From positions 64,001-128,000 of IMG/VR virus record IMGVR_UViG_3300037400_003528: a stretch of DNA of 64,000 nucleotides. The stretch is one strand, 5' to 3'. Each line of letters starts with the position of its first letter. The first letter of the stretch is position 1. The translations under genes were made by a program, and so were the position numbers. The notes below the pieces were generated by a model that had not been told where the DNA came from, ran no database searches, and saw only the letters and a program-made list of their open reading frames with translations. Origin of the DNA: a virus. This document shows positions 6,742 through 59,602 of this stretch, one piece after another.

Positions 6742-6770
6742 TTGACAAAATAAAAAATTTTTGTTATACT
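6742..6770 (+). promoter_or_regulatory. sigma70-like promoter TTGACA-17-TATACT
   Basis: Exact -35 hexamer, 17-nt spacer 'aaataaaaaatttttgt' and a -10 'tatact'. An RBS and ATG 6812 lie downstream. Confidence 0.7.
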
Positions 6771-6811: not shown

Positions 6812-7348
6812 ATGAATTATAAAGATTTAAATCTACATATTAATAAAGATACTTATTGTATTGAAATGTAGGGGAAAAAAATTAATATTAAAAAATACCT
6901 TCCTATTAGAGATAAAAAAGATTTAATTGAAATAACTTTACAAAAAGCGGAATAGGCGGACGGTACATATAATGAAATTTTAATTGATATGTATTTTCAT
7001 TTACATCTTATTTATCTTTATACTGATATTGAATTTACAGAGGAAGATAGAGAAGATGAAATGAAACTTTATGATGAATTAGAAAGTAACGGAATACTTG
7101 AAAGGATAGTTAATAAAATTCCTGATGAAGAATATGAAATTTTAATGGATTATTTAAAGACAACACGTAAAGAAATTAGTTCTTATAAGCATAGTGCGGC
7201 AGCTATGGTACAAAAATTAATTATAGATTTACCAAAGAATGCAGAAGCCGCCGCCAAAATTGTATAGGAATTTGATCCAGAAAAATATAAAGAAATTGTT
7301 GATTTTGCTCAACATGCTAATGCAGATAGACCAATTCCTTCAAAATAA
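6812..7348 (+). CDS. putative tail assembly chaperone (178 aa, 4 TAG) immediately upstream of the tape measure gene
   Basis: RBS 'aaaggagat' precedes the start. The frame contains ORF 6989..7267 and ends at TAA 7346-7348. The call is positional. Confidence 0.5.
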
Positions 7349-23354: not shown

Positions 23355-23383
23355 AGTATATCAAAAATTTTTAAAAATGTCAA
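23355..23383 (-). promoter_or_regulatory. sigma70-like promoter TTGACA-17-TATACT (minus strand) upstream of the RuvC-like gene
   Basis: Minus-strand reading is 'ttgacatttttaaaaatttttgatatact'. Confidence 0.65.
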
Positions 23384-23436
23384 AAAAATAAGAGGATAGC
23401 AATTTATTAAAATTACTATCCTCTTATTTTTTATTT
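23382..23436. terminator. hairpin terminator (aagaggatag...ctatcctctt) flanked by an A-run and a T-run
   Basis: 10-bp perfect stem with a 16-nt loop; bidirectional. Confidence 0.55.
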
Positions 23437-24777: not shown

Positions 24778-24963
24778 TTATAATTCTATTTTTTTATATA
24801 AACCGCAATGGCATTCACCGAGTCCTTGCTATCTAAATTCTTTACAAATACATTTAGTATCTTCATTTTTTATTGTTTTACAAGGGCAATACCCATTATT
24901 TGTTTTGAGCATTGCCCGTATCTAATTAGCAAGTTCTTTATCTTCCGTTACTTTTATTATCAT
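24778..24963 (-). CDS. small Cys-rich protein (61 aa, 2 TAG)
   Basis: ATGA overlap with the nrdG stop. Contains 'GYCPCK...CICK...CHCG'. Confidence 0.4.
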
Positions 24964-25436
24964 ATTATTAACCTTTCTGCATATTGATTATTACTAGCTA
25001 AATTTACACCCAATGTTTCATCATAATGTTGCTCTTGATTAGGTATAAATCTTCCATATTTTATAATTATATTATCAAAATTTTTTAAAAAAGTCAAATA
25101 CCATTTAATTTCTTCTTTATTATATCCAGTATAGATTATTATATCATCATTAGATACCTATCTAAATTTTTTAATAAAATCTAGTACCTAATAGAAAGAA
25201 TCAAATGGTTCTAATCCTTGAAAAACAATAGCTTCAGAAATATTATTATTTAAATAACTATTTATAATTTCTTTTATAGGTATATTTATTTTCTTTGCGG
25301 AAGCTAGGTCTGAGTTCTGACAGACCTGTTTCCCGCATTCTTTATCACATTTAAATGTGCAACAAGGCATCATTATTGTCATACAAGGTTTTTTATAATT
25401 TATAAAATCTTCATTTATAATATCAATTACTTTCAT
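24960..25436 (-). CDS. nrdG: anaerobic RNR activating protein NrdG-like radical-SAM enzyme (158 aa, 2 TAG)
   Basis: A Cys cluster 'CTFKCDKEC' and 'FQGLEPF' are present. The gene sits immediately downstream of nrdD with an ATGA overlap. Confidence 0.7.
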
Positions 25437-27637: not shown

Positions 27638-28192
27638 TTATTTTTGTTCATTTCGAATAATATGAAACAAATCAGATATAATAGGTTGTACCTAATTTGT
27701 TTCATTTAAAATTACTTTATAAGAAAAAGGAAGATTTTTAAAATCTTCTTTATCAGTAAAAAAACGTCTACATATTTCTGAACAATCAGGAGAACTCTAT
27801 CGTGATAATTGTCTTAATAATCTAATTTTATCAGAACAATGTATCATAATAGGTATACACTAGATATTCTATTTCTATAAAATCTAATTAATAGCTCTTG
27901 GAGAAAAAACACCAATATTAATTTTATCTTCTTTTAAATCATCTATTGATGTACCATACCACCAGTTATTGAAACATTGAGACTATATCCACTATTTGTT
28001 TTTAAACTACTAAATAGTTAAAAAATGATAATGGACATTCTATTTTTCATATACTCGCGGAGGTCTTGTAGTAGATGTAATAATCTTATGTAAATGAATT
28101 TTTCCATAAATAGTTTCAAAAAGTCTGGAAAGAATATAATCCTTTCCAGACCCTGCTGGTCCACATAAAGCGATAATTTTATATTTACTCAT
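27638..28192 (-). CDS. guanylate-kinase-like dNMP kinase (184 aa, ~9 TAG including a TAG-TAG tandem)
   Basis: P-loop 'GPAGSGKD' and 'TTRPPR' motif are present. The start overlaps the DNA polymerase stop. Confidence 0.7.
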
Positions 28193-31100
28193 TTATTGCC
28201 TCCATTCCATATCTTGTTGAAGTTAGTTCAATTCTTCTTCCATTTACATTTGTTATCAAATAAAGCTGATGCCCGCCAGTACTTTTATATTTTTTAGCTA
28301 CAAAAGTATCATCACGTCTATATCCTGTAACTAATAATTTATTACCACGAGTAAACCAACCTTTTTCTTTTACTTTTTTGACACCTTCTTCATTCACTTC
28401 ACTTATCTGTCTATTGAACATTGCATAATAATCACGAGTAAATTTAACATTAACAGTTCCTGTTGGTGTTAAAAGAGTAACTATATGACGGGTATCATTT
28501 TTATCAATAACAGTTCCCGCAATTCTTTGTAACTTATAAATAGGAATTTGTTTACCATTACGTTTAAAAAAGTAATCAACCACAGGAGAAGAAGAAAGAT
28601 TATTAAAATCTACAATCCCATAAAAACTATTATCAATATTTTCTAATTCGTGAGCATGATAATAAAAACATAAGGATTTCATTTCCCAGAAAGAAATATT
28701 TCCTTCTGCATATTTATTCCATTCTTCTTCAAAAAGTTTCAAATTTAATTGTTGTAAAACTTCTTGTTGTTCACATTGTAACCATGCTCGTACGTTATCC
28801 ATAATTTTATTATAAATTTTGTCCCATGTTTTTTGTTTTATTACAAAACAATTATTTATAATATCAACATCTTCCATATCGAAATGATCAGAATAAAAAT
28901 TCATACTATATTGTTCTGGCATAACATAATTATCTTGCCATTTCTTTGTTTTTAAATATTTATTAAAAAAGAAAACTCTTTTTTCAAAATCTAAAGATTC
29001 AGGAAAAAGATTATAATTAATTAAAGTTGATACATTTTGAAGATTTAATCGTGTTTTTGGGTTACTTGTAATAGATAAATAATATACCATAGCCCATATA
29101 CGAGGATTTACATTATTTTTTTTAGCTTCTTCTTTTGATAATTCATCAAAAGCACCTGCTTTAATTAAACTAATCATGGCGGTTTTATTTAATTTACACC
29201 TATTCATAAAATCTTTAATAGATTCATATGGACGATTTTGTTTAATCTGGTCAACAACAGATGCTCCTACATTACTTAATGCCTTCATACCGAATAAGAT
29301 TTGATTATTTTCTACATCGGGTTTAAAACCATAATCTGATTTATTAATATCTACTAAACTAACTTCAATACCCGCATTTATAATTTCACCTAATGCTTTT
29401 GCAACCTTACCATAATCAGTTACATTTTCTTTTTTCTTAATAGGCGTATCATCTTCATCATACTCAACATCATCTTCTTCTTCAAGACTTCCACTATTTA
29501 CTACAAGACATGCGGCATCCCAATAAATTGGACTCCAATGTGTAGCAATATAAGCTGTTTGGAAACCGATAAAACTATAAGCAAGAGCATGAATGATAGA
29601 AAATGAGTATCCCATCTGAGGACCGACACCATTTTCCCATACGTATTTACCAAGTTTTTCTGAAGATGCCCGCTCTAAGATTTTTTGATGTAATTCTGGA
29701 ATTTTACTCATTTGTTTCTTACCAACAATTTTTCTTGCGGCGTTTGCTTCCGCTAAGGTAAAGTTACAAATATTCTTATCCATAAGCATTAACATCAATT
29801 GTTCTTGCGAAGGGGGAACTCCATACGATGATTTAAAATACGGTTCAAGATAATCTCTTTCGTCTGGAGTTAAACCAAATATATACATTTCTTTATACCA
29901 AAGGTCAAGATTATTCTTATAACGGATATATTTTTCCATCGGTGTTTCCGCACCCTTTTCCGCAGTCATTAATCTCATAAGACCATTGGCATCAGTTAAC
30001 TCAAGAATTGTTTTCGGTTTAATTTTTTTAGCAGCCTGACTACCAACTTCTGAATCAAACTGAAACACATTTATTACTGAACCATTTTGAATCGCATCCC
30101 ATACATCTTTATCATTTATAGGTAAAACATTTGGATGAAAATATTTATCATAAACAGGACGTAGATTAATTCCAGTATCTTCTATTTCTCCATCCTCTTG
30201 TAAAAATCTAATTGCTTGAGCGAGTTTATCTTGAACTTCTGTAACCAGAAAGTCATATTTAACAAGACCTGCCGCTTCACAATCATGTAAATCATATTGT
30301 GTAATTATTTCTCCCTTTGGAGTTTTCATGAAGCACCCAAATTCATATGGATCTTCGTCAAAAAGAATTACACCAGAAGCATGACTACTACGTTTATTTA
30401 CAAGACCAACAATACCAAAAATAATATCAAGAAGTCCAGGATATTCATTTACTTCTTTAACAAAAACGTGAACAGGTTCTCTATCTTTATCTTTGTTACC
30501 ATTTATAACATCTTCAAGAGGCCACAAAAATCCTCTCTCTGAAGGAATTAATGATGCTATATACTGTGCTTCATCATTATCAATACCATCAGGAAATTCT
30601 TCTGACCTATATCCGCGGCAAGCGGTAAGAACTGCGGACTTAGTTTGTTCTGTACCATATGTGGCTACTAAAGTACAACCTAGATTCTTTCGTGATAAAT
30701 CATCTATATCAGGATTAAATCTGCGGCCGCGCTCTTCTTTTATCTTTCTTACTATTGTTCCTTTTTTCGATGGACAAATATCAATATCAATATCACCTAA
30801 CTCAGTTCTTTCATCATTCATATAACGAAAGAAAGGTAGATTCCATTCAATTGGATCAAGCTGAGTGATACCTAAAAGATAATGATTTAATGCGGCACAT
30901 GATGAACCTCTTCCGGCACCGACAAGACTTCCGCATTCCCATATCATATCAATGTAATATTTTAATGTAATAGGATATTTGAACATATTAGTACCAAGTT
31001 TTTCTCCTATTACTTTTTTAACTCTTGCTTCTTCTTCTAGTTGTTCATAATATTTATCGTTGGTATGATTATAATGTATATGGTCAAACTTTTCACATAA

Positions 31101-32138
31101 TTGATTTACACATTCATGAACCCAATATCTATCATAAATATTATCAGATTCAAACATACCTGCAAGAGTAGGATAATGTTCATGCCAATATGAACTTGCT
31201 GGAACTTTTTCATAATTACTAATAGGAACGCTTGGAATTGTTTGATTATGAAGTAAATCATATATCTGAATTTTATCAAACATTTCCATACTATTAGCGC
31301 ACATTTCTTCTATTAATTCGCCAATAGAAGGTTCAAGATTTTTCTTTAAATCATCTTCATCTTGGAGATACGCATACTCATAGAAAGCATCGGTTTCTCT
31401 TTCTCCACCTTTAGAATTAAGATATGCTTTATGAATATATCTATCTTCTTTTTTAAGATAATGAGCATCATCTCCGATTACAATTTTTTTATCATATGAA
31501 TGTGCAATCTGTACTAATTTTTTATTTGCAATAATTTGTTCTTTAGATGCTCCTGGAGCAACCTCAATATAAAAATCATTACCAAAAATTCTATCAACAA
31601 AATCTATAAAATTAATGATTTGATTTTGTTTAATTGTCACCGTCTCTTCATCTTCCACATGTCTAGCTTTTTCCATTTCTATAATACAACTAGATAGTTC
31701 ACCGCCTAAACATGCGGATGTTGCTATAAGATGACCTGGGTTCCGCATCACCACCTCTTCTAATTCACTTTTGAGAGTTGGTACACGTTCCATACCTCTA
31801 TCCCAATAAGAATTCATCCAAGTGCGTGATGATAATTGACGTAATTGTTTATGGCCTTCCGCATCTTTAGCAATTAATATAAAGTGATAATACTTTATAC
31901 CATTTTGTCTTACATCTGTAAGATATATTTCATTGCCTATTGCTATTTTAAAATCTGGATTTTCTTTTTGAAGTTTACAAACACGAATAGATTGGGCAAG
32001 GGTTTCATGGTCTGTGATAGCCAATCCTGCAAGCCCAATCTCTTTTCCTCTTTTTACGAGGTCTGGTAATTTATTTATACAATCGAGAAGTCTAAAGTTT
32101 GACATCTCTGTATGACAATGTGGAACAAAACGTTGCAT
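28185..32138 (-). CDS. DNA polymerase III alpha (DnaE/PolC family) with N-terminal PHP domain, 1317 aa, no TAG
   Basis: Supplied ORF. PHP motif 'FVPHCHTEMS...ITDHE' at the N terminus; the remainder is large-polymerase-like. Confidence 0.8.
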   Translation of the reverse strand: MQRFVPHCHTEMSNFRLLDCINKLPDLVKRGKEIGLAGLAITDHETLAQSIRVCKLQKENPDFKIAIGNEIYLTDVRQNGIKYYHFILIAKDAEGHKQLRQLSSRTWMNSYWDRGMERVPTLKSELEEVVMRNPGHLIATSACLGGELSSCIIEMEKARHVEDEETVTIKQNQIINFIDFVDRIFGNDFYIEVAPGASKEQIIANKKLVQIAHSYDKKIVIGDDAHYLKKEDRYIHKAYLNSKGGERETDAFYEYAYLQDEDDLKKNLEPSIGELIEEMCANSMEMFDKIQIYDLLHNQTIPSVPISNYEKVPASSYWHEHYPTLAGMFESDNIYDRYWVHECVNQLCEKFDHIHYNHTNDKYYEQLEEEARVKKVIGEKLGTNMFKYPITLKYYIDMIWECGSLVGAGRGSSCAALNHYLLGITQLDPIEWNLPFFRYMNDERTELGDIDIDICPSKKGTIVRKIKEERGRRFNPDIDDLSRKNLGCTLVATYGTEQTKSAVLTACRGYRSEEFPDGIDNDEAQYIASLIPSERGFLWPLEDVINGNKDKDREPVHVFVKEVNEYPGLLDIIFGIVGLVNKRSSHASGVILFDEDPYEFGCFMKTPKGEIITQYDLHDCEAAGLVKYDFLVTEVQDKLAQAIRFLQEDGEIEDTGINLRPVYDKYFHPNVLPINDKDVWDAIQNGSVINVFQFDSEVGSQAAKKIKPKTILELTDANGLMRLMTAEKGAETPMEKYIRYKNNLDLWYKEMYIFGLTPDERDYLEPYFKSSYGVPPSQEQLMLMLMDKNICNFTLAEANAARKIVGKKQMSKIPELHQKILERASSEKLGKYVWENGVGPQMGYSFSIIHALAYSFIGFQTAYIATHWSPIYWDAACLVVNSGSLEEEDDVEYDEDDTPIKKKENVTDYGKVAKALGEIINAGIEVSLVDINKSDYGFKPDVENNQILFGMKALSNVGASVVDQIKQNRPYESIKDFMNRCKLNKTAMISLIKAGAFDELSKEEAKKNNVNPRIWAMVYYLSITSNPKTRLNLQNVSTLINYNLFPESLDFEKRVFFFNKYLKTKKWQDNYVMPEQYSMNFYSDHFDMEDVDIINNCFVIKQKTWDKIYNKIMDNVRAWLQCEQQEVLQQLNLKLFEEEWNKYAEGNISFWEMKSLCFYYHAHELENIDNSFYGIVDFNNLSSSPVVDYFFKRNGKQIPIYKLQRIAGTVIDKNDTRHIVTLLTPTGTVNVKFTRDYYAMFNRQISEVNEEGVKKVKEKGWFTRGNKLLVTGYRRDDTFVAKKYKSTGGHQLYLITNVNGRRIELTSTRYGMEAINE

Positions 32139-32196
32139 TTATTAAACCTCTCTTTAGTTTATTATATAAATATTATATCATAATTTTTATTAATTG

Positions 32197-32391
32197 TCAA
32201 AAGTAAAATTCATCTCTTGTTTTTACTTTTCTTTCAAATTCTTTACAAGTTACATAAAATTCAATTACTTCAGGACAAGATTCATTATCAAGTTTCCCTT
32301 CGACCTTTGAAATAATTTCAGGTACTTCAATTTCTGTATATTTACAAACATTATGTTTTTTACAATCTTCACATTCAAAATTAATATTCAT
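32197..32391 (-). CDS. hypothetical small Cys-containing protein (64 aa)
   Basis: Supplied ORF in the operon position between the nuclease and polymerase genes. Confidence 0.35.
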   Translation of the reverse strand: MNINFECEDCKKHNVCKYTEIEVPEIISKVEGKLDNESCPEVIEFYVTCKEFERKVKTRDEFYF

Positions 32392-33391: not shown

Positions 33392-34576
33392 TTACCTCAC
33401 TAATACTAATTTGGAACTGGCTCTCGTACACGCTGTATATAACCACCGAGCATGCTCTTCTTTATTAAAAGGAAAGTTTTCTTCTATAACGAGAACTTTC
33501 GACCATTCGCTACCTTGAGCACGATGGGTAGTAATAGCATAACCGTACGTAAATTCATACGGGATTAAATTTTGATATTTAATATTTTTTCCTAATATAT
33601 ATTTCTCCTTTTGAGTTAAAGAGCCTTCTCCTATTAATATATAATTTTTATCCATATTCAATAAACCAAAATTGTCCCCATCTTCTGATATAAAATTACC
33701 AGAAATTATTGGGATAATATTATTAGATTTTTTTACCCAAGGAGGAATTTTATAATATGTTTCATATGAATTAGATAAATATCCCATTGTTCCATTAATT
33801 AAAGGAGCATCAGTATCAGAATAATTATCCCAATAATTTCTTAAACAAGTTAAGCGTTCTCGTTCTCCAATAACTCCTTTTTCAAAACCCATAAGGTCTC
33901 TCATTTGATTATTAATAGCTACGCGTGTTGCATTTGTACCTACTAGTATCTGGTCTGCCCATTTAAGTACACCAGTATTTAAATCTTTTTTAGGCATAAC
34001 AATAGCATCATGGCTAGTAAAATATTCAAATGATTCTTTATTGCGGACTTGCATAGATAGTCTAATAATTTCAGAATCTAAAGCCTGTCGCATAATTTCA
34101 TCAAGGAAAACATCAGGATTATTCAAAAGACCATTATCTTGATTTTTATCTACTGGCGGAAGCTGGAATGGGTCCCCTAAAGCAATTATAAAAACGTTAT
34201 GTGTAAAAAGAAGTTCCATTAACTGTTTAGGAGCCATAGAAACTTCATCAACAATAACAATTTTATAATCTATAAAAGGTTTAGGTTTGCGGAAGAAGGT
34301 TCCATCAGGTTTAGGAATACTTTCATAAAGAAGTTTATGTAAAGTTAAAACATTTTTATTACCTTTTTTAAGAAGAACTTGCGCCGCCTTACCTGTATAA
34401 CAAGCATATACTACATCTTCTTCAAGGTTAATACCTGGAAGATTTTGAACAATAAATTTTACTAATGTAGATTTACCGGCGCCCGCATATCCAGATATAA
34501 CACAATATTTTTCACCGTTAATATATTTCTCAATACAAGTTTTTAAACCTTGCTCTTGCTTTTTTGTTAATATCAT
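33392..34576 (-). CDS. SF1B (Dda/RecD/Pif1-like) DNA helicase, 394 aa
   Basis: Walker A 'GYAGAGKST', 'DEVSM' and 'TTHRAQGSEW' are readable. Confidence 0.8.
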   Translation of the reverse strand: MILTKKQEQGLKTCIEKYINGEKYCVISGYAGAGKSTLVKFIVQNLPGINLEEDVVYACYTGKAAQVLLKKGNKNVLTLHKLLYESIPKPDGTFFRKPKPFIDYKIVIVDEVSMAPKQLMELLFTHNVFIIALGDPFQLPPVDKNQDNGLLNNPDVFLDEIMRQALDSEIIRLSMQVRNKESFEYFTSHDAIVMPKKDLNTGVLKWADQILVGTNATRVAINNQMRDLMGFEKGVIGERERLTCLRNYWDNYSDTDAPLINGTMGYLSNSYETYYKIPPWVKKSNNIIPIISGNFISEDGDNFGLLNMDKNYILIGEGSLTQKEKYILGKNIKYQNLIPYEFTYGYAITTHRAQGSEWSKVLVIEENFPFNKEEHARWLYTACTRASSKLVLVR

Positions 34577-34842
34577 TATTCATGTTCTCCTATTGCTTCA
34601 TCTAAAATTTCACAAAAACGTAGTATATCTCGTTTAGCCACATCATAATATTGAGATTTTTCTAATTTATGATCTCTTGACCATTCTAATTCAGCCATAG
34701 CTTCTCTAGCCCGAATATATCTATACACTAAAGAATCATATTGATAACCTTTTAATTTTTTTTCATCTTTTTTTGTAAATAATTTAAAGACAGTATCACC
34801 AATTCCTATTTCTTTTACTTCAGTATTTACAAATTCTGCCAT
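34576..34842 (-). CDS. hypothetical protein (88 aa)
   Basis: Supplied ORF coupled to the helicase start. Confidence 0.45.
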   Translation of the reverse strand: MAEFVNTEVKEIGIGDTVFKLFTKKDEKKLKGYQYDSLVYRYIRAREAMAELEWSRDHKLEKSQYYDVAKRDILRFCEILDEAIGEHE

Positions 34843-34981
34843 TATTTTTTTCTCCTTTTATTTTATATTATAATTTTATCATAAAAAAATAAAAATTGCA
34901 AAATCGAAATAAAAAAGACCAAAACCTGTTTTTAAATCAGAATCTTGGTCCAGCGCGCGCCCAGCAGATTAAAATACAAAA

Positions 34982-35254
34982 TCACTACGGTATTTTATGA
35001 TTGCTTTCATAATAAAACCCATAAGTATCGTATAATGATTGTGCAACTTTTTTAGCACAATCATGACATAAATAATAAGTTTTCTAATAAAAATCTGCCT
35101 TTTCAAAATAAGAAGGTAAAACTGAAGGATATAAAGAAAGGGTAGGGAAATTATACATACGATAACCTTTATCATTTGATTTCTTCATTTTCCTTGTATC
35201 CAATTCTTTATTACATAAATCACAAAATCCATACGCATAATGTTGTACACTCAT
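34982..35254 (-). CDS. small Zn-finger protein (90 aa, 1 TAG, ends TGA)
   Basis: RBS 'aaggag' precedes the start. Contains 'CDLC...CHDC'. Confidence 0.45.
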
Positions 35255-35264
35255 ATTATACTCC

Positions 35265-37079
35265 TTAAAATACAAAATTGCCACGGTCTATAATCTAATA
35301 ATCCTATATAAAAATTTGAGGAGATATATTTCCCATCCATTCGTTTTGATGTGCTCTTCCTATTATATTTAATTCATAATAACCAGAAGTATTCTGTAAC
35401 ATATAACATTCTTCATCAGTTGCTTTAAATTTAATTAATGATATACCTTGTGGAGTAGTTATCTTTAAAGTATTATTTTTCTTAACATAAACTGTTATCA
35501 TATCTGAAGTTACTTTTAAATGCTAAATACATATAAATGGTTCATCTATATCTTTACCCCATAAATCCTACATATTAGCAATAGTAAGTATATCATTCGG
35601 ATTTATATTATTTCCTTGATAAATATAATCTACATAATACATTGCCTAATTAGGCATGTCTTTTAATAACTCATCTGTTTTTTCTATAAATGCAGGAATG
35701 TTTTCCTACAATATACCTAGACCAAATGCTCCAGGATGACCTACCTAATACATCGTTAAATCTGTGTCCGCGCATATACTTTTAAAATCATTTATTCCTA
35801 CTTTATCACATCCTCTTGCAGAGCCTTGATATGTAGTAACTATCTAAGGAAAAGGCTGTTTTTCTCCTGGAGAAAGATCTGTATAAATAGTAATTTTAGG
35901 TATTTCCACTTTTGTTAATAAACATGTAGGCCGCTGATATTTAGCCATAATTTTATTAGCAATTAAACCTGCAATATTCTTATCAACTTGTCCAGGTTCA
36001 AGTAAAAATAATAATACTTTATGGTCTAAAAGATGTTGCTCCTATATCATTCTTTCTATTGTTTGTAACCCTGCCTCTTGTGCTTTTGTTTGTCTGTTTT
36101 TAACATTAGTAACAACTCGCATAACTTGCTAAACAAGTTGTTCCATTTCTCCAGGAGCATGTCCTCTTTTTGTAGAAGGTAACATTTTAAACGCTTTATG
36201 CTTTAACATAGATTCAAATGTCAATGTTTTTTCTTCTATTGTTCCGCTTCTGCAAATAGCATTAATATAAGGAGCCACATAAAAAGCTACACTCATATGA
36301 TTAATTTTATTATTCATAGAAAAAGCATTTTTTTCAGATAAATTTACAAAGAACGGATTTTTAAGATTATGAAAACCTTTATTAATAAGATGTTTTGTTT
36401 CAATAGATAGCATAGACATCATATCAGCACAGTTACCTAATGCCATTAAATCAGTATAATTATCAGCATTATTAATTTTGAGCAAAGAATCAAGATAACG
36501 ACAAAATTGCCAAACAACACCAGCACCGCTAAAATCTTTATTAGGATAATCTGATAATTGATTGTTTATAACAATAGCATCAGGATTCTATATATCACAA
36601 ATATGATGGTCTAAAATAATTATATTAATATTATTTTGTTTTAAACGAGTACATTCTTCTATATCATTACTCCCTGCGTCTGGGACAATAACAAGAGAAT
36701 ATACTTTAGCTTCAATTATCCAATCTATATGGTCATTTAATCCATGCTGTTTTCCTTTATGTATACAATAATCTAAATTAGTTTCTACCCAAGCGGGAAA
36801 CAGGTCATGTAGATAATTAATCAAGATTGCAGAACTGGTAAAACCGTCAGCATCACTATCTATAATAACTAAACATTTATTATTATTTTTAATATTTTGT
36901 ATTAAAAGACTGGCGGCCGCCTATAATTTTTCTCTATCTAATTCTTTAAAAGAATTTATATCGTTATCTGTTGTATTAAGATAATGATATACTTCATTAT
37001 AAGGAATTCCCCTATTAGTTAAAATTTGTTCTATTGTTGAATAACTCTAATTAATAGGATTTATTAATTGATATTTCAT
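35265..37079 (-). CDS. DHH-family phosphoesterase (RecJ-like), 604 aa, ~13 TAG
   Basis: Motifs 'IIDSDADGFTS' and 'IIILDHH' are present. The frame links ORFs 36588..36824, 36129..36485 and 35304..35501. Confidence 0.75.
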
Positions 37080-37120: not shown

Positions 37121-37149
37121 ATGATAACAAAAAAAATTTGAGTTGTCAA
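37121..37149 (-). promoter_or_regulatory. promoter TTGACA-17-TATCAT (minus strand) inside a 9-bp inverted repeat
   Basis: Minus-strand reading is 'ttgacaactcaaattttttttgttatcat', upstream of the DHH gene. It overlaps the palindrome gagttgtca...tgacaactc. Confidence 0.5.
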
Positions 37150-40439: not shown

Positions 40440-40940
40440 TTATTCATCTCCTAAATCTAAAAGGCGGGGTGCAGGTCTTTTAGGTTTAGGGGGTACAATA
40501 TTAAACTCAATAACCTGCTGCCGCATTTGCTTGTTACTATTTTGATACTGTGTTGTATATAACTGTTGATAATATTTCCTTACATCTTCATATATGTAAG
40601 GGATAATACCAATTCCGCCATGGCCTTCCTCTAAATTACCATGATTAATATTATAAAACCAATGTAAGCATCCTGTCATACCGCTCCAAGTATAACCATA
40701 TTGTTTTATGAAATTTAATGCTTGTTTATTAATCATTACATAATTATAATCTGGCCCATATATACTTTTTACACATTTAAAAAAATTCTCTTTATCAATC
40801 TCCTCTTGTTTAACACTATCATCTTGAGATTCTGCACATTCTTTATGAGCATATCTTCGTGCTCCTACTTTAACAAAAGGTTCTTTATCTCGGTTAAAAG
40901 ATTTTCCGCAATAAAGACATTTTACCATATGTACAGCCAT
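40440..40940 (-). CDS. Zn-ribbon protein, putative helicase loader/replication accessory (166 aa)
   Basis: 'CLYCGKSF...HKEC' at the N terminus; placed between the DnaB-like and Sak4-like genes. Confidence 0.4.
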   Translation of the reverse strand: MAVHMVKCLYCGKSFNRDKEPFVKVGARRYAHKECAESQDDSVKQEEIDKENFFKCVKSIYGPDYNYVMINKQALNFIKQYGYTWSGMTGCLHWFYNINHGNLEEGHGGIGIIPYIYEDVRKYYQQLYTTQYQNSNKQMRQQVIEFNIVPPKPKRPAPRLLDLGDE

Positions 40941-40981
40941 TTTATTTCCTCATTTTATTTTTATTATATCATTTTTTTTAT

Positions 40982-41016
40982 AAAAAAACAAGATAGTGAT
41001 TTATATCACTACCTTG
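40982..41016 (-). terminator. rho-independent terminator (12-bp stem with one mismatch + T-run on the minus strand)
   Basis: Sequence 'caagatagtgat ttat atcactaccttg', preceded by A7 on the plus strand. Confidence 0.6.
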
Positions 41017-41023
41017 TTACTAA

Positions 41024-42106: not shown

Positions 42107-43081
42107 TTAAAAATTAAATCCGCCTTCAGGAACTGCTGTTGATGGAGTAGGAAGAGGACCGTTTTGAATATTAGAAGAAGCAGTTGTTTTTCTTTCTGCA
42201 TAATATTTCTTAGTTGCAGCTTTCTGCTCTTCAAGATAAATATTTCTATCAGAAATTGCTTTTTGAAGTTCTTCCTGGGTAATAGTATCAGGTGTATCAA
42301 ATACATAAGGATTAGGCTGTGCCCAAGTGATAATCCATTCTCTTTCATGACGAGGAGTAGAATCAACAATAGCTTCACCAAATGCATTTTCCATAACTTT
42401 AGGAATTACAATTGTAGTATTAGTAATTTCACCTATAACTTTTGTATAAATAGGATTCTTTTCTGAAGCATTAAGACCAAGAAAATAATTTACAGAGCCA
42501 GGTGCTTTAGAATCTTTTGCAATCAAAGAGAAAGGCATAATTGCATTTTTAAAATCAAAAATCGCTGCATTAATTCTTACAAAATCTTCTGGTATATTAT
42601 GTTCAGGATCAGCAGGGATAAGAGTTACTTTATTGATAATAACATCAAAAGTAAACTTTTTTCTGGCTTTTTCATCAGGATTAAATTCTGAAATAAAAGA
42701 AACAAAACCGCCTTCATTTTTTTGAGTAGTTACAAGTAGGTCTCCACCGCCAGGAAAAGAATCCTTTAAGCCAGCAGATGTATTCAAACGAACTTTAAGA
42801 GCTCCATCTTTACCATCCTTAAGCCATGTCTTTCCGCCATCAAGAATCTGCTTCAGATTTACAAAAGTACTACTAACTGCTCCAGCTTTAGTATATTCTG
42901 TTACAAAAGTATAGTGTACAGGGATAACATTCAAACCTTCCTCATCAGTTGCAACATTAAGATTGCCTGAAATAAAGTCAACACCAAAATTTTTTGATGC
43001 TTTATTAGTAACCTTTTTCATCTGAAGTGAATGGTCATATACTCTACCTTCAATAATTTCTTCATTAATATTTTTTCTCAT
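42107..43081 (-). CDS. hypothetical protein, possibly ssDNA-binding partner of Sak4 (324 aa)
   Basis: Supplied ORF with no TAG and an aromatic C-terminal tip '...PEGGFNF'. The SSB assignment is speculative. Confidence 0.4.
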   Translation of the reverse strand: MRKNINEEIIEGRVYDHSLQMKKVTNKASKNFGVDFISGNLNVATDEEGLNVIPVHYTFVTEYTKAGAVSSTFVNLKQILDGGKTWLKDGKDGALKVRLNTSAGLKDSFPGGGDLLVTTQKNEGGFVSFISEFNPDEKARKKFTFDVIINKVTLIPADPEHNIPEDFVRINAAIFDFKNAIMPFSLIAKDSKAPGSVNYFLGLNASEKNPIYTKVIGEITNTTIVIPKVMENAFGEAIVDSTPRHEREWIITWAQPNPYVFDTPDTITQEELQKAISDRNIYLEEQKAATKKYYAERKTTASSNIQNGPLPTPSTAVPEGGFNF

Positions 43082-43125: not shown

Positions 43126-43154
43126 ATTATATAATAAATTTTTATAAAAATCAA
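43126..43154 (-). promoter_or_regulatory. promoter TTGATT-17-TATAAT (minus strand)
   Basis: Minus-strand reading is 'ttgatttttataaaaatttattatataat', upstream of gene 42107..43081. Confidence 0.5.
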
Positions 43155-44017: not shown

Positions 44018-44962
44018 TTATTTATTACCTTTCGTCACATTTAAACCAACTTTATTTGATTGATACATCTAAATCCAAAATCGTTCTTTTTCATTTAATT
44101 TATCACGAGTACATTTCTAAAGAATTTCAAAAGTGAAATTCCATACACCATATTTCTGCATGTTATTATAAAGTTTATTTGTTACAGAAGCGTCTATACC
44201 AAGTCCGCATTTTATATGTTGTTTCCATCTATCTGCGATATTAACACTTTGCCCAATATAAATATCACCAGTTTGTTTATTAGTAATTTTATAAATTCCG
44301 CAGATTGTAGTAGATCCTAATACACGATTACACAAATCAGAAGTAGGTTTCATTATGAAAGCAGACCAAATAATTTTAGAAACAATAGAAGGATCATTTA
44401 GTTCATTTTTCCATTCTTGAAGATGTGTAATATCGTTAATTTGTTTTTCAGATATTTTTATACGATAAAATGCAATTTTATCTTCTTCCTCTTGCTATCT
44501 AAGACGTGCGGCGGTTGCAGCCTAATATACTGATTTAAGCTAGTTTAAATTTGATTGAACTTGATCTCGTTGTTGTTGAATATTAATTATCTATTGTTTT
44601 AATTGCTACTAATAATCTTTAGCTTCTTGGGCTTGTGAAATAGAAGCATTATGATAAATCTATTTTATTTTTTTTAATTGTTCTTGATAAGTCTGTTCTA
44701 TCTATTCTAATTTTTTGCCTCTATTTTCTCTTACCTATTCTAAAATAATATATTCTTTTTGTCTTTTATTTGTTAACTATAAAATTGTATTTTGTCTCTA
44801 AGTAATACGTTCATTTAAATCATTTAATTTTTTGTGTCTTCTCTATATCTCATTTATTATCTAATTATTATATTGCTATTTTTTTTTGCCGCTTATTAAA
44901 TACCAACAAAAACAACTAGACTAAATGATAATAATAATAATAAAAATAATAATCATACTCAT
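44018..44962 (-). CDS. GIY-YIG nuclease with an N-terminal hydrophobic segment and a Gln-rich coiled coil (314 aa, ~26 TAG)
   Basis: GIY-YIG core 'GIYKITNKQTGDIYIGQSVNIADRWKQH...YGVWNFTFEIL...ERFWI' lies at the C terminus. The 5' 600 nt have no TAA/TGA and ~24 TAG. The N terminus 'MSMIIIFIIIIII.SSCFCWYLISGKKK' is hydrophobic. Confidence 0.55.
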
Positions 44963-45014: not shown

Positions 45015-45323
45015 TTATTCCATTTCTGGAACAAGTGCGCGGCCCGATTCTGTTAACTTAACAAATTTTACAGATTCATGTTTGATAGAGCCATCTTTTT
45101 GCTCAATTTCTAGTTCGCCTTCAACTCTCTTTGCCCAAGGATCTTTTACCTTTTCTCCATCAACATCTTTCATATGACGAACGAATGCACCAGTAATAAT
45201 ACCATTTACCTGTCTGGGATCTAATCCAAGTGCTGCGGCAATATCCTTTGCAGTAATATCCTCATCTTCATGCTGTTTTAGATACTGAAATACATTATAA
45301 GTGTTTTCCTTAAATTTAACCAT
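45015..45323 (-). CDS. HTH DNA-binding protein, putative transcription regulator (102 aa, no TAG)
   Basis: 'DITAKDIAAALGLDPRQVNGIITGA' is helix-turn-helix-like. The gene has its own consensus promoter and terminator. Confidence 0.5.
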   Translation of the reverse strand: MVKFKENTYNVFQYLKQHEDEDITAKDIAAALGLDPRQVNGIITGAFVRHMKDVDGEKVKDPWAKRVEGELEIEQKDGSIKHESVKFVKLTESGRALVPEME

Positions 45324-45370: not shown

Positions 45371-45399
45371 ATTATACTAAAAATTTTTATATTTGTCAA
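45371..45399 (-). promoter_or_regulatory. sigma70-like promoter TTGACA-17-TATAAT (minus strand)
   Basis: Minus-strand reading is 'ttgacaaatataaaaatttttagtataat'. Confidence 0.7.
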
Positions 45400-47564: not shown

Positions 47565-47761
47565 GCTTCATAATCCTCATAATTTCTATTAACAGATTCT
47601 CCGCAAAAAGGACAAATAGCTGTAATGTACAACTCATTTCTCCAATTATTACGAGTGTAAGAAGAGTTGTCTGCTTCAAAAATACAATCACATTTAGAAC
47701 AAATAAAACGTTTTGTTTCGTTCATTTTTTTTAAAGAACCATCTTTAATAATTTTAATCAT
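47561..47761 (-). CDS. small Zn-ribbon protein (66 aa)
   Basis: 'CSKCDC...CPFCG'. Confidence 0.45.
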   Translation of the reverse strand: MIKIIKDGSLKKMNETKRFICSKCDCIFEADNSSYTRNNWRNELYITAICPFCGESVNRNYEDYEA

Positions 47762-49797: not shown

Positions 49798-50987
49798 CTA
49801 ATCGTTATTAACCATAGGCTTTTTGTCCTATGCTCTGGAGGTTTCCCTCATTTTCATCGAATAGTTAATTCTATTCCAGTATAGCATATCTTTTTAACAT
49901 AATAAACTCTGTTATTATACTACCCGTTAGCGCGGACTCTTGGAGATATTATATTCTTAAATTCGCATTTAAGGTTCAATCTCTATGCGTTGCGTTTGAC
50001 TATATTATTACATATAGCCTTCAATCTCTGATTAGGATGACTAAACCCTTCCAGTTTAATTCCGCGCTGATCATTCTAAATTAATTGGTAGTTTCATTTA
50101 GAACGGCATAATTTTTAACTAAGTCAAATTTTCTTTCAAGATATAATTGATTTTCATTCTCTAATATGTTATGGTAAAATTTTATTATTCCATCTTTATT
50201 AGAAATTCTTAATCTAAAAATAGAATTTATTTGATCTAATTCAATTGGATTAATTTTTATTGTTTTTTCAAGATATTCTTTAATAGATTCGCACAACTCT
50301 TTTGTTCCTGAAATACCTATTTCATGACTATTTTTAGAAAAATAACACCAACCATCCCCGTCGAAAATACCCCTAATAAAAGCATTTTGTAATTTTTCAT
50401 TGTTAAAATTATACATAGGCTCATGATTTAAAGAAATTTTATTTGGAATAATTCCATATTTTAATATTGCATTACACATTTCTCTACTTGAAATGGTTAA
50501 ATTAGCAATAGAATTTTGTTTTCCTTCTGTGAAACCAGAACCATTTTCAATTTTTATAGGAATATTACTTTTTAAACACTGATTGAATTTTTCAAGAATA
50601 GATTTATCATCAGCTTTTAGTCTAAATCGAATAGTTGTTCCAGTATTATTTCCATCTGCTAATAAAAAACCTAACCAGTATGCTTTTTCAGCAGTATCAA
50701 TTTTATTAAAGTATGTTCTATTATAAGAATATTTTTCTCTTTTTGATCGGGAAGGAATATTTAATGCTTTTAGTTTATTATAAAAGGTGCCTCGATCAAT
50801 ATTAAATTTTTTAGCTACATCTGTAGTTGATTCTTCTTCATTTTCTAAATAATACTAGAGAGCTTGTTTATAAGTTTCATTCATTTTAATCATATAAAAT
50901 ATCTCCTTTTTATTTTTGATATTTTATATAAAATTTTACCATAGAAATTTAATCAATTTTTACCTTGAATGTTAAAAATTTTTATTT
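49798..50987 (-). other. putative group I intron (~1.19 kb) splitting the topoisomerase A-subunit gene
   Basis: Exon 1 ends '...RYPLIDWHG' and exon 2 begins 'NNGNITGDG', reconstructing the GyrA motif 'YPLVDGQGNFGS.DGDGAAAMRYTE'. The 3' segment 49798-50080 is GC-richer with P7/P8-like pairings (agtata...tatact) and a terminal G. An endonuclease ORF is embedded. Confidence 0.5.
50081..50893 (-). CDS. intron-encoded LAGLIDADG homing endonuclease (270 aa, 1 TAG)
   Basis: Motifs 'WLGFLLADGN' and 'FIRGIFDGDGW' are present, with its own RBS 'aaaaggagat'. Confidence 0.8.
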
Positions 50988-51287
50988 ACCGTGCCAATCT
51001 ATAAGAGGGTAACGCATAACCCAAGGTTGAGAAAGACGAACCATTGCTCCATAGATTGAACTGTCTCCATGAGGGTGATATTTACCCATAACATCACCAA
51101 CAATTCTTGCCGCTTTAACGTGAGGCTTAGATGAAGTCCGCCCTTCTTCAAATGCTGACCAGAGAATACGTTTTGCAACAGGTTTAAGGCCAGATTTGGC
51201 ATCAGGAATTGCTCTGTCGGTATTAACAGCTACCGCATATTCTATAAAGTTTGTACTTAATTCTTTTGTTAAATCATTCTGTATCAT
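50988..51287 (-). CDS. type II DNA topoisomerase A subunit, exon 1 (100 aa)
   Basis: 'RAIPDAKSGLKPVAKRILW...GKYHPHGDSSIYGAMVRLSQPWVMRYPLIDWHG' matches the GyrA N terminus. Confidence 0.75.
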
Positions 51288-52063: not shown

Positions 52064-52096
52064 ATATATTTTATATATATTCATTAATTTTTCCCT

Positions 52097-54033: not shown

Positions 54034-54062
54034 ATTATAGCAAAATTTTTATAAAAATGCAA
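54034..54062 (-). promoter_or_regulatory. promoter TTGCAT-17-TATAAT (minus strand) for the topoisomerase operon
   Basis: Minus-strand reading is 'ttgcatttttataaaaattttgctataat'. Confidence 0.6.
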
Positions 54063-54088
54063 ATGCTTTTTTCTTTGTTTAAGAAAAT

Positions 54089-54116
54089 TTGACATCTCAA
54101 AAATTTTTGATATAAT
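54089..54116 (+). promoter_or_regulatory. promoter TTGACA-16-TATAAT (plus strand), divergent from the 54034-54062 promoter
   Basis: Sequence 'ttgacatctcaaaaatttttgatataat'. Confidence 0.6.
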
Positions 54117-54122
54117 ATAAAA

Positions 54123-54220: not shown

Positions 54221-54322
54221 TATTATTTCAACATATCTGAAATTAACAAATCCATAAATTTTATTATTAATTTTCACATAATACCAAGTAGTACCATTGC
54301 TTGCTTGAATACTATCACAAAT

Positions 54323-57607: not shown

Positions 57608-57633
57608 TTCTTCTCCTTTATTATAACATAAAA

Positions 57634-57672
57634 TTTTATAAAAGGCAAAAAAGTTATAATAACCTTTTTGCC
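57634..57672 (-). terminator. hairpin + T-rich terminator between the RNA ligase and kinase genes
   Basis: Sequence 'ggcaaaaa...tttttgcc'. Confidence 0.5.
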
Positions 57673-57679
57673 TTTTATT

Positions 57680-59547: not shown

Positions 59548-59576
59548 ATTTTATCAAAATTTTTTAAAAAGGTCAA
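59548..59576 (-). promoter_or_regulatory. promoter TTGACC-17-TAAAAT (minus strand) with an A/T-tract spacer
   Basis: Minus-strand reading is 'ttgacctttttaaaaaattttgataaaat'. Confidence 0.5.
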
Positions 59577-59602
59577 ATATAAGAAAATGATTTTGTGTTC
59601 TT

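What the first reader, a model, noticed from the sequence alone, without database searches (positions are those of the whole stretch)
6742..6770. Family of near-consensus sigma70 promoters sharing an A5T5 spacer core
At least seven promoters have TTGACA-like -35 and TATAAT-like -10 elements, most with an exact 17-nt spacer. They also share a central A4-6/T4-5 tract ('aaaaattttt') in the spacer. The sites are 6742-6770 (+), 23355-23383 (-), 45371-45399 (-), 54034-54062 (-), 54089-54116 (+), 59548-59576 (-) and 43126-43154 (-). A conserved spacer is not required by sigma70, so it may be a binding or bending element for a phage or host factor. The nearby HTH protein 45015-45323 is a candidate.
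Basis: seen in the sequence. Interest (0 to 1): 0.6.

Follow-up and report, generated by a model that had tools for sequence, protein, structure and literature searches.

The report
Phage promoter class with A-tract/T-tract spacer
The window comes from a gut or rumen phage whose host-type promoters share a conserved run of A's then T's between the two standard promoter boxes, and this signature marks one whole class of promoters across a clade of uncultured phages, so the spacer itself probably carries regulatory information.

Summary
All seven sites exist. A matrix built from them finds 9 sites scoring 26-37 (next best 13). With the 16-nt-spacer site and two weaker ones, the family has 10 firm and 2 weaker members. 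Eleven are intergenic and aimed at a gene or short RNA. Hexamers alone are at chance level in this 28% GC DNA; hexamers plus an A4+T3+ spacer occur 8 times against 0.8 expected.

The window is a TAG-recoded siphophage related to phAss-1. In 154 non-redundant promoters from relatives fetched by protein homology, A is kept at -23 to -21 (81-90%), T at -19 to -17 (69-90%) and TG at -15/-14. Flanking DNA is unconserved. The motif survives in phAss-1 (44.5% GC) as about 25 near-identical copies. A second class of equally consensus promoters there lacks it. Cultured relatives (Lactococcus 949, Enterococcus EF1) keep only the TRTG/-16 part.

The 3' part of the "conserved spacer" is therefore the known extended -10. 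The A/T-tract core (-24 to -18) is a clade- and class-specific element. It is most likely a curved-DNA signal read by RNA polymerase itself. A dedicated binding factor is not excluded. Nothing beyond adjacency and a winged-helix fold links the 45015-45323 protein to it.

The parts
6742..6770 (+). Promoter TTGACA aaataaaaaatttttgt TATACT, 41 nt upstream of gene 6812-7348, the gene preceding the 2921-aa tape-measure gene.
   Evidence: An orthologous promoter is present upstream of the 6812 ortholog in nearly all of 64 relatives fetched by tail-protein homology.
23355..23383 (-). Promoter TTGACA tttttaaaaatttttga TATACT upstream of the RuvC-like gene (probable start ATG near 23325). A terminator-like hairpin and T-run abut the -35.
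   Evidence: It has the highest matrix score (37.3).
25069..25097 (-). Promoter TTGACT tttttaaaaaattttga TAATAT, embedded in the coding sequence of the NrdG-like gene 24960-25436 (about codons 114-123). It points at genes 24778-24963 and beyond.
Evidence: score 28.2. The Pfam Fer4_12 match spans residues 22-137.
32172..32200 (-). Promoter TTGACA attaataaaaattatga TATAAT, 33 nt upstream of the 1317-aa DnaE-like polymerase gene 28185-32138.
37121..37149 (-). Weaker relative: TTGACA actcaaattttttttgt TATCAT upstream of the RecJ-like gene 35265-37079. It has a T-tract and TG but only A3.
40963..40991 (-). Weaker relative: TTGTTT ttttataaaaaaaatga TATAAT upstream of gene 40440-40940, directly after a terminator hairpin.
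   Evidence: (score 12.0).
43126..43154 (-). Promoter TTGATT tttataaaaatttatta TATAAT upstream of gene 42107-43081 (324 aa, no Pfam match, next to an AAA_24 ATPase gene).
   Evidence: Thirteen exact-consensus hits in other viral contigs sit upstream of orthologs of this gene.
45371..45399 (-). Promoter TTGACA aatataaaaatttttag TATAAT (12/12 hexamer match), 47 nt upstream of the winged-helix gene 45015-45323.
   Evidence: About 50 of 62 distinct upstream regions of orthologs carry the same architecture.
45015..45323 (-). 102-aa winged-helix protein. It is listed as context, not as a shown part of the mechanism.
   Evidence: AF2 pLDDT 93.7. The best PDB matches are MarR/MepR at E about 1e-2, TM about 0.5. 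62 unnamed homologs have no Pfam domain. Pfam EarA-like is below cut-off.
54034..54062 (-). Promoter TTGCAT ttttataaaaattttgc TATAAT, 38 nt upstream of the GyrB-like gene 52097-53995.
54089..54116 (+). Promoter TTGACA tctcaaaaatttttga TATAAT (16-nt spacer, 12/12 hexamers), back-to-back with 54034-54062. Its transcript would meet an 18-bp hairpin and U-run at 54179-54218, giving an RNA of about 95 nt.
57620..57648 (-). Promoter-like site TTGCCT tttataaaattttatgt TATAAT. This is the least certain of the ten: its -35 lies inside a terminator stem and the -10 ends only 12 nt before the ATG of 57119-57607.
   Evidence: (score 25.9).
59548..59576 (-). Promoter TTGACC tttttaaaaaattttga TAAAAT, 39 nt upstream of 59245-59508, the first gene of the long minus-strand block. 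It is divergent from the plus-strand late genes starting at 59603.

Best explanation
These sites are one class of host-RNA-polymerase (sigmaA/sigma70-type) promoters of a TAG-recoded, phAss-1-like siphophage. Their architecture is TTGACA, about 5 variable bases, an A-tract (-24 to -20), a T-tract (-19 to -15), G at -14, one base, then TATAAT.

Shown: the sites exist. They are far above chance. They are intergenic and correctly oriented. The spacer is conserved position by position across a deep phage clade and across a base-composition shift from 28% to 44.5% GC. It marks one promoter class and not another.

Inferred: the spacer is a composite cis-element read by RNA polymerase itself. The 3' part (T-17, T-15, G-14) is the extended -10 / -16 element bound by sigma region 3. 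The A-to-T tract junction around -20 gives an intrinsically curved, rigid, narrow-minor-groove segment exactly where the beta' zipper and the sigma 2-3 linker touch spacer DNA (-24 to -17). This makes a very strong promoter that needs no upstream UP element and has an all-A/T, easily deformed spacer.

This distinguishes it functionally, and probably in timing, from the phage's other promoter class. That class has an A-rich upstream block, TTGACAAA, a variable and often G+C-rich spacer, and TRTG. About 0.85 confidence applies to the promoter-class statement and about 0.45 to the RNAP-sensed-shape mechanism.
For: - **Sharp family, and enrichment only when the spacer is included:**
- **Position and orientation:**
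- **Conservation in samples chosen by protein homology, not by promoter:** orthologous promoters lie upstream of the 6812 ortholog and the winged-helix ortholog.
- **Position-by-position conservation:** in 154 non-redundant promoters, A-23/-22/-21 are 0.86/0.90/0.81, T-19/-18/-17 are 0.69/0.77/0.90, T-15 is 0.84 and G-14 is 0.69. Upstream flanks carry 0.06 bits per position.
- **Order matters, not just A/T content:** A4+T3+ is found in 47-61% of clade promoters against 0-5% for T4+A3+. In all viral contigs the A5T5-G form gives at least 120 loci (capped), against 16 for the same-composition T4A5-TG form.
- **Not composition:** phAss-1 (44.5% GC) has about 25 copies of TTGACA tAAAAAAATTTTTrTGr TATAAT.
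- **Class-specific:** a second class of equally consensus promoters lacks the tract in phAss-1 and in other clade contigs.
- **Overlap with known RNAP-spacer contacts:** the Z-element lies at -24 to -18, localised to -22 to -18 (AACCT/AACAT), and is active with E. coli, T. aquaticus and B. subtilis enzymes (PMC3173786). T, or TTT, is preferred around -18 and is sensed through sigma70 R451 (PMC3130263).
- **Precedent for a spacer tract setting selectivity:** a homopolymer tract in the spacer imparts curvature and sets promoter selectivity for B. subtilis ECF sigmas (PMC5758882).
- **Tolerated register shift:** the tract junction varies by 1-2 bp, as expected for a shape signal rather than a base-specific operator.
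Against: - If the tract were simply optimal for the host polymerase, the phage's other strong promoter class should carry it. So should the promoters of cultured relatives on Firmicute hosts (949, EF1). They do not.
- The near-invariance of the 17-nt spacer in phAss-1, together with a conserved downstream ATATATAGAAA, is more than the loose Z-element consensus would demand.
- The host is unknown, so its polymerase preferences cannot be examined.
- No transcription start sites or binding data exist.
- A 2-bp register shift would rotate a bend by about 70 degrees, which fits awkwardly with a strict curvature model.
Confidence: 0.5

Rival explanations
1. The A/T tract is the binding site of a clade-specific DNA-binding protein, phage- or host-encoded. 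The 102-aa winged-helix protein 45015-45323 is one possibility. The protein would switch this whole promoter class off or on, giving temporal control.
For: - The tract is class-specific. Equally consensus promoters without it coexist in the same genomes.
- It is absent from cultured relatives.
- The exact 22-base motif is rare in bacterial genome bins (79 loci in 596 Gb, at least 31 of them relatives of this phage group).
- Copies in phAss-1 are nearly identical.
- AAAAATTTTT is its own reverse complement.
- The winged-helix gene is clade-restricted (no match in 50,697 phage records).
- That gene is the one most often found behind an exact-consensus copy (23 of 124 hits).
Against: - There is no conserved dyad outside the tract itself.
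- The tract position relative to -10 varies (first T at -21 to -18).
- No excess of the motif occurs outside promoters. Of 7 AAAAATTTTT in the window, 4 are in promoters and 3 are scattered in coding DNA.
- The site lies under the polymerase footprint, so only repression or remodelling is easy to imagine.
- The winged-helix model gives only generic MarR-like matches and lacks MarR dimerisation helices.
- phAss-1 keeps the motif but has only a weak partial homolog of the protein (33% over 49 residues).
Confidence: 0.22
2. The class is read by a polymerase altered during infection, through a phage-encoded sigma-like or sigma-remodelling protein. The spacer tract would be the selectivity determinant that separates this class from early promoters, as T-tracts do among ECF sigma factors.
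For: - Two promoter classes share the same hexamers and differ only in spacer and flanks.
- There is precedent for spacer tracts setting sigma selectivity (PMC5758882).
- In phAss-1 the class covers the replication, nucleotide-metabolism and tRNA block, which is typical of delayed-early or middle genes.
Against: - No sigma or known polymerase-binding domain was found among about 30 window proteins scanned against Pfam/PHROGs.
- Perfect -35, -10 and TG elements should already be used efficiently by the unmodified host enzyme.
Confidence: 0.1
3. The all-A/T spacer is a topology sensor. It would be relaxation-tolerant and stay active on nicked or replicating phage DNA, while G+C-rich-spacer early promoters need negative supercoiling. 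The phage's own GyrB/GyrA-like topoisomerase would take part.
For: - Spacer G+C content sets supercoiling sensitivity and timing of synthetic promoters, and A/T-rich spacers tolerate or prefer relaxation (PMC8695583).
- Class I spacers are C/G-rich at -27 to -22, while class II spacers are pure A/T.
- A GyrB-like gene lies directly behind one family member.
Against: - A/T richness alone would suffice, yet the order A-then-T is strongly preferred over T-then-A.
- Specific positions are conserved.
- EF1 spacers are 84% A/T without any tract.
Confidence: 0.08
4. The spacer has no function of its own. The similarity would reflect A/T-rich composition, or recent duplication or gene conversion of one promoter cassette.
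For: The window is 28% GC and its intergenic DNA 22.6% GC. The copies in phAss-1 are nearly identical.
Against: - Simulations give 0.8 expected against 8 observed.
- The motif persists at orthologous sites in genomes whose proteins are 24-50% identical, while flanking DNA is randomised.
- It persists at 44.5% GC.
- Same-composition relatives lack it.
Confidence: 0.04

Closest known systems
Extended -10 (TGn) / Gram-positive '-16 region' (TRTG) sigmaA promoters
   Same: T-17, T-15 and G-14 are conserved just upstream of TATAAT. Eight of the 10 aligned window sites have TG at -15/-14, and G-14 is 69% in the clade. The same element is present in class I promoters and in Lactococcus 949 and Enterococcus EF1.
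   Different: This known element accounts only for the 3' third of the conserved spacer. The A-tract and the T's at -19/-18 are not part of it, and they are missing from relatives that have TRTG.
Z-element: spacer segment -24 to -18 contacted by the beta' zipper (Yuzenkova et al. 2011, PMC3173786), and the -18 T / sigma70 R451 contact (Singh et al. 2011, PMC3130263)
   Same: The class-specific conserved positions (-24 to -18) fall in the same window. A-22, A-21 and T-18 match AACCT/AACAT. TTT centred near -18 matches the reported preference.
   Different: The Z-element consensus is loose, has small effects (about 2-fold), and was defined on T7 A1/A2. Here the tract is long, homopolymeric and highly conserved, and it distinguishes a promoter class. 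Dependence on the zipper is untested.
Homopolymeric T-tract in the spacer of B. subtilis ECF-sigma promoters (Gaballa et al. 2018, PMC5758882)
   Same: A homopolymer tract inside the spacer is proposed to act through intrinsic curvature, and it changes which promoters are used.
   Different: Those promoters have ECF-type hexamers and a -35-proximal T-tract. Here the hexamers are housekeeping consensus and the element is an A-tract then a T-tract in the -10-proximal two thirds. The -35-proximal bases carry only 0.09 bits per position.
Phage T5 early promoters (for example PN25)
   Same: They form a family of very strong host-polymerase phage promoters with conserved A/T blocks beyond the hexamers. 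PN25 itself has GGAAAATTTTTCTG before TATAAT.
   Different: Across 15 annotated T5 early promoters, the shared blocks lie upstream (about -45) and downstream of the start. The spacers differ, and only PN25 has the tract.
phAss-1 and the 'Caudoviricetes code 15 clade' (Babkin et al. 2023, PMC10607447)
   Same: Both are siphophages with a giant tape-measure gene, TAG read as sense, an anaerobic RNR and a gut origin. The tail-tube protein is 46% identical, and a shared replication module is 25-35% identical. The same promoter class is present.
   Different: The window phage is far more A/T-rich (28% against 44.5% GC) and only distantly related. The paper does not mention promoters (0 occurrences).

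Membership tests
sigma70/sigmaA housekeeping promoter | -35 hexamer close to TTGACA | tested here: met
   Among the 10 firm sites the -35 match is 6/6 in five, 5/6 in two and 4/6 in three. The clade consensus is TTGACA at 1.64 bits per position.
sigma70/sigmaA housekeeping promoter | -10 hexamer close to TATAAT, 16-18 bp downstream | tested here: met
   The -10 match is 5-6/6 in 9 of the 10 firm sites and 4/6 in one (TAATAT). The spacer is 17 nt in nine of the 10 and 16 nt in one.
sigma70/sigmaA housekeeping promoter | Placed upstream of, and oriented toward, a gene | tested here: met
   Eleven of 12 sites are intergenic and all are co-oriented with a downstream gene or short RNA. Ten of the 12 lie 12-47 nt before the start codon (the NrdG-internal site is 106 nt from the next gene). 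SD-like AGGAG/GGAG sequences are visible before most of these starts.
sigma70/sigmaA housekeeping promoter | Transcription starts about 7 nt downstream of -10; bound and opened by holoenzyme | not testable with these tools
   No RNA or binding data are available, and the host is uncultured.
Extended -10 / -16 region promoter | TG at -15/-14 (TRTG at -17 to -14) | tested here: met
   Eight of the 10 aligned window sites have it. In the clade T-17 is 0.90, T-15 0.84 and G-14 0.69. Position -16 is T/A rather than R.
Z-element (beta' zipper) promoter | AAC(C/A)T-like sequence at -22 to -18 | tested here: inconclusive
   A-22 is 0.90, A-21 0.81 and T-18 0.77, which match. Positions -20/-19 are A/T, not C (compared).
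Z-element (beta' zipper) promoter | Activity depends on beta' zipper residues | not testable with these tools
   This requires mutant polymerase assays.
Operator of a dimeric HTH regulator overlapping a promoter | Conserved dyad symmetry at a fixed position | tested here: not met
   Only the AnTn tract itself is self-complementary. The flanking spacer bases are unconserved (0.09 bits). The junction position varies from -21 to -18. The apparent CA...TG symmetry is the end of TTGACA and the TG of the extended -10.
Operator of a dimeric HTH regulator overlapping a promoter | Demonstrated protein binding | not testable with these tools
   Only a fold prediction for the neighbouring winged-helix protein is available.
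T5-type early promoter family | Conserved A/T block near -45 and a conserved initially transcribed region, with TTGCTT-type -35 | tested here: not met
   The upstream region here carries 0.06 bits per position. T5 spacers are not conserved.
ECF-type T-tract promoters | ECF -35/-10 motifs with a -35-proximal T-tract | tested here: not met
   The hexamers are housekeeping consensus. -35-proximal T's occur in some window sites but are not conserved in the clade.

The most novel reading that the evidence does not exclude
In this clade of TAG-recoded gut and rumen siphophages, two temporal promoter classes share perfect housekeeping -35 and -10 boxes. They are told apart only by what lies between and around the boxes. 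The A-tract/T-tract spacer would be the discriminator, read by a phage-encoded factor or a phage-modified polymerase, and possibly by the small winged-helix protein whose own gene carries the best copy. That would be a temporal switch encoded in the promoter spacer, a mode not described for any phage.
Probability: 0.25. Interest if true: 0.75.

Novelty: new variant of a known kind. Interest (0 to 1): 0.5.

Why it matters
Promoter spacers are usually treated as passive rulers. Here a defined spacer sequence is conserved as strongly as parts of the hexamers across a deep, uncultured phage clade, and it separates one promoter class from another with the same hexamers. That gives a natural, many-copy test set for how spacer shape is read by RNA polymerase, or by a new factor.

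It also gives a practical signature for annotating transcription units and gene timing in TAG-recoded phages whose hosts are unknown. The paper describing the nearest named relative (phAss-1) does not mention promoters.

A further lesson is that in 28% GC DNA, near-consensus hexamer pairs alone are at chance level. The spacer motif is what allows real promoters to be called.

Tried and rejected
1. **Composition as the cause.** Rejected by simulations, by the T5A5 and T4A5-TG controls, by Enterococcus EF1 (31% GC, 84% A/T spacers, 0 of 20 with the tract), and by phAss-1 at 44.5% GC.
2. **T5 early promoters as a direct parallel.** My recalled PN25 sequence was confirmed. However, the 15 annotated T5 promoters do not share spacers.
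3. **A general bacterial promoter form.** The exact motif gives only 79 loci in 185,579 species' genomes, all of them metagenome bins. I first took these for mis-binned phage, but only about 31 show homology to the window or phAss-1. The rest are single occurrences of unknown status, so I do not claim that all are phage.
4. **The winged-helix candidate.**
   - After a database search the model was confident but matched only generic MarR-like winged helices.
   - There was no hit in cultured-phage records and no Pfam or PHROG family.
5. **A sigma factor or polymerase-binding protein in the window.** None was found among about 30 proteins scanned.
6. **tRNA and Rfam scans of the window.** Nothing was found.
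7. **A larger dyad-symmetric operator around the tract.** Not found.
8. **Numerical DNA-curvature model.** Not run, because I could not verify the wedge parameters from memory. The curvature of AnTn against TnAn is cited as established knowledge only.

Full report
**1. What the window is**

The window is 28.1% GC.
- Under the standard code, ORFs of at least 150 aa cover only 42% of it.
- Reading TAG as sense raises this to 89% and yields a 2921-aa tape-measure-like gene and a 1502-aa gene on the plus strand.
- The long minus-strand block (22.8-59.5 kb) encodes the replication and nucleotide-metabolism genes and the lysin:
  - DnaE-like polymerase, DnaB-like helicase and primase.
  - RecJ-like and RuvC-like nucleases.
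  - GyrB-like topoisomerase subunit, NAD ligase, and anaerobic RNR with its activase.
  - A GH25+CHAP+GW lysin.

It is therefore a TAG-recoded siphophage of an anaerobic Gram-positive host.
- Its tail-tube protein is 46% identical to that of phage phAss-1. phAss-1 is from human gut and is classed in the 'Caudoviricetes code 15 clade'.
- The same protein is 28-37% identical to those of Enterococcus EF1-like, Lactococcus 949-like and Bacillus Tsamsa-like phages.
- The phAss-1 paper proposes a Eubacteriales/Clostridia host and never mentions promoters (PMC10607447).

**2. Checking the observation**

A weight matrix from six of them, scanned on both strands, gives 9 sites scoring 26-37 and then a gap to 13. 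Together with the 16-nt-spacer site 54089-54116 and two weaker relatives, the window has 10 firm and 2 weaker members. The window consensus is TTGACa tTTttAAAAAtTTtTGa TATAAT.

Statistics:
- The full pattern with up to 3 mismatches gives 5 hits against 0.00 expected. The T5A5 swap gives none.
- Hexamers alone are at chance level in this A/T-rich DNA. There are 10 pairs with up to 1 mismatch against 6.8 +/- 2.6, and 57 with up to 2 mismatches against 63.9 +/- 7.6. The built-in loose scan finds 126 against 122.7.
- Requiring an A4+T3+ spacer as well gives 8 against 0.79 +/- 0.97, with 0 of 200 simulations reaching 8. The shared spacer is what makes the family real.

Eleven of the 12 sites lie in the 5.8% of the window that is intergenic, and all point at a downstream gene. 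The twelfth, 25069-25097, lies inside the NrdG-like coding sequence.

**3. Relatives**

The exact pattern TTGAC-N6-AAAAATTTTTG-N-TATAAT hits at least 120 viral contigs (capped). Many of these are relatives of the window phage. The hits sit at orthologous positions: 23 upstream of orthologs of the winged-helix gene 45015-45323, 13 upstream of 42107-43081, 12 upstream of 6812-7348 and 6 upstream of the RuvC-like gene.

To avoid selecting on the motif, I fetched loci by protein homology instead.
- 76 loci came through the tail-tube protein. In 64 with a 6812 ortholog, almost all have TTGACA-17-TATAAT upstream with an A-tract, a T-tract and TG, even at 24-45% protein identity.
- 80 loci came through an alignment of the winged-helix protein. 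About 50 of 62 distinct upstream regions show the same architecture.

Across 154 non-redundant promoters from these loci, chosen on hexamers only:

| Position | Base | Frequency |
|---|---|---|
| -23 | A | 0.86 |
| -22 | A | 0.90 |
| -21 | A | 0.81 |
| -19 | T | 0.69 |
| -18 | T | 0.77 |
| -17 | T | 0.90 |
| -15 | T | 0.84 |
| -14 | G | 0.69 |

The 30 bp upstream of -35 carry 0.06 bits per position, and +2 to +19 carry 0.12. The first T of the tract sits mostly at -19 or -20, with a range of -21 to -18.

**4. Controls for composition and generality**
- A same-composition pattern that keeps TG but reverses the tract order (T4A5-TG) hits only 16 viral loci, against at least 120.
- The share of near-consensus promoters with A4+T3+ in the spacer:

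| Sequence set | With tract / total |
|---|---|
| Tail-protein homology loci | 31 / 56 |
| Winged-helix homology loci | 63 / 104 |
| phAss-1, whole genome | 20 / 43 |
| Lactococcus 949 (first 50 kb) | 0 / 30 |
| Enterococcus EF1 (31% GC, spacers 84% A/T) | 0 / 20 |
| Viral loci fetched with the reversed-tract control pattern (L197-212) | 1 / 91 |

- The 949 and EF1 promoters do have T-17, A-16, T-15 and G-14, the Gram-positive TRTG / extended -10. They show no preference at -24 to -20 and have A at -19/-18.
- In 596 Gb of bacterial and archaeal genomes the exact motif occurs at 79 loci, all in metagenome bins. About 31 are recognisably relatives of this phage group and the rest are isolated occurrences.

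**5. Two promoter classes**

The complete phAss-1 genome (44.5% GC) carries about 25 near-identical copies of TTGACA tAAAAAAATTTTTrTGr TATAAT ATATATAGAAA. All but one lie on the minus strand between 55.8 and 125.8 kb, in the replication, nucleotide-metabolism and tRNA block.

A second set of about 23 equally consensus promoters is clustered at the genome end (127.6-136 kb and 0-0.5 kb). These have:
- an A-rich block near -46 to -40;
- TTGACAAA;
- a variable, C/G-rich spacer;
- TGTGg;
- often TACAAT at -10.

The same dichotomy appears in other contigs of the group. Dense arrays of the second type are flanked by A/T-tract promoters (L218, L251, L253/L252, L022). L253 and L252 lie on a 159-kb contig that also carries homologs of window genes. 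The window itself seems to contain only the A/T-tract class. The early-type array is presumably elsewhere in the genome.

**6. Interpretation**

The conserved spacer has two parts.
- **T-17, T-15, G-14.** This is the known extended -10 / -16 element. It is common to all promoter sets examined here except T5.
- **A at -24 to -20 and T at -19/-18.** This is specific to the clade and the class. It coincides with the spacer stretch that RNA polymerase contacts.
  - The beta' zipper 'Z-element' lies at -24 to -18, localised to -22 to -18 (AACCT/AACAT). It is functional with E. coli, T. aquaticus and B. subtilis enzymes (PMC3173786).
  - T, or TTT, is preferred around -18 and is sensed through sigma70 R451 (PMC3130263).

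By established knowledge, AnTn junctions are intrinsically curved and TnAn junctions are not. The strong preference for A-then-T order fits a shape signal. There is also a precedent for a homopolymer tract in the spacer acting through curvature to set promoter selectivity (PMC5758882).

My best reading is a polymerase-read structural element that makes a strong, UP-independent promoter class. Three things leave room for a dedicated factor or a modified polymerase: the class specificity, the absence from cultured relatives, and the near-invariance in phAss-1. The contrast between pure A/T spacers and C/G-rich spacers could also give different supercoiling responses (PMC8695583).

**7. The candidate protein**

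The product of 45015-45323 models confidently as a small winged helix (pLDDT 93.7).
- It has only weak MarR/MepR-like structural matches (E about 1e-2, TM about 0.5).
- It has 62 unnamed homologs without Pfam domains.
- It has no match in 50,697 phage records.

Its promoter is the best-conserved family member. That is equally expected for a highly expressed gene. phAss-1 has only a weak partial homolog, and it lacks such a promoter directly upstream. No evidence here links the protein to the spacer.

**8. Comparison with T5**

PN25 does carry AAAATTTTT in its spacer. Across 15 annotated T5 early promoters, however, the conserved blocks lie upstream and downstream of the core, not in the spacer.

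**9. Verdict**

The element is a new variant of a known kind: a housekeeping-type promoter with an extended -10 plus a conserved A-tract/T-tract spacer module that defines a promoter class in an uncultured, TAG-recoded phage clade. Interest is moderate (0.5). It would be higher if the spacer proves to be the discriminator of a temporal switch.

Noticed in passing
window 1-24000 and 59600-64000 (+ strand), and scattered genes on the - strand: TAG is read as a sense codon. Coverage by ORFs of at least 150 aa rises from 42% to 89% when TAG is sense. The tape-measure-like gene has 92 in-frame TAGs, while many replication genes have none. No tRNA gene, and therefore no suppressor, lies in the window. 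phAss-1 carries three tRNA-Sup-CTA genes.
   Followed up: partly
window 25069-25097 (-), inside ORF 24960-25436: A high-scoring family member (TTGACT tttttaaaaaattttga TAATAT) is embedded in the coding sequence of the NrdG-like radical-SAM activase, at about codons 114-123, within the Fer4_12 match. It would be an internal promoter for the genes downstream.
   Followed up: partly
window 54034-54226: Two family promoters stand back to back, 26 bp apart. The plus-strand one (54089-54116) has no Shine-Dalgarno sequence before the nearby ATG (54134). Its transcript would run into an 18-bp perfect hairpin plus U-run (54179-54218), which is also the terminator of the lysin gene on the other strand. 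This predicts an RNA of about 95 nt (fold z = -5.9) with no Rfam match.
   Followed up: partly
window 57638-57678, 40987-41018, about 23384-23425: Terminator-like hairpins with T-runs abut or overlap the -35 boxes of family promoters. At 57620-57648 the TTGCCT -35 is part of the terminator stem. This suggests tightly packed terminator-promoter junctions.
   Followed up: no
phAss-1 (L385-L387) 127.6-136 kb; L218, L251, L253, L205, L199, L197, L022: Dense arrays of a second promoter class occur, with about one promoter every 100-500 bp. Their architecture is aAAAAAnnnn TTGACAAA, a variable spacer, TGTG, then TATAAT/TACAAT. In many of them a GGGG...CCCC inverted repeat brackets the -35 box, so the -35 sits in the loop of a potential hairpin.
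   Followed up: partly
window 47758-51287 (-): The GyrA-like topoisomerase subunit appears to be split. An N-terminal piece of 101 aa (50982-51287) and a 709-aa piece (47758-49887) are separated by a LAGLIDADG homing-endonuclease gene (50081-50893). GIY-YIG genes lie nearby (44018-44962 by Pfam; 51512-52084 by sequence appearance only, not scanned).
   Followed up: no
L003-L115 and L302-L381, upstream of winged-helix orthologs: The 5' leaders of winged-helix gene orthologs (about 45-90 nt) often contain a short hairpin, for example GATGAAAAACATC, before a strong AAAGGAGA ribosome-binding site. This hints at a conserved leader structure.
   Followed up: no
window 34843-35264 (-): A 422-nt stretch without a called gene ends in another promoter-like site, TTGCAA tttttatttttttatga TAAAAT, which has a T-rich spacer and TG but no A-tract. 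It lies upstream of 34576-34842. The stretch also contains a G+C-rich segment (GGGCGCGCGCTGG) that is unusual for this genome.
   Followed up: no
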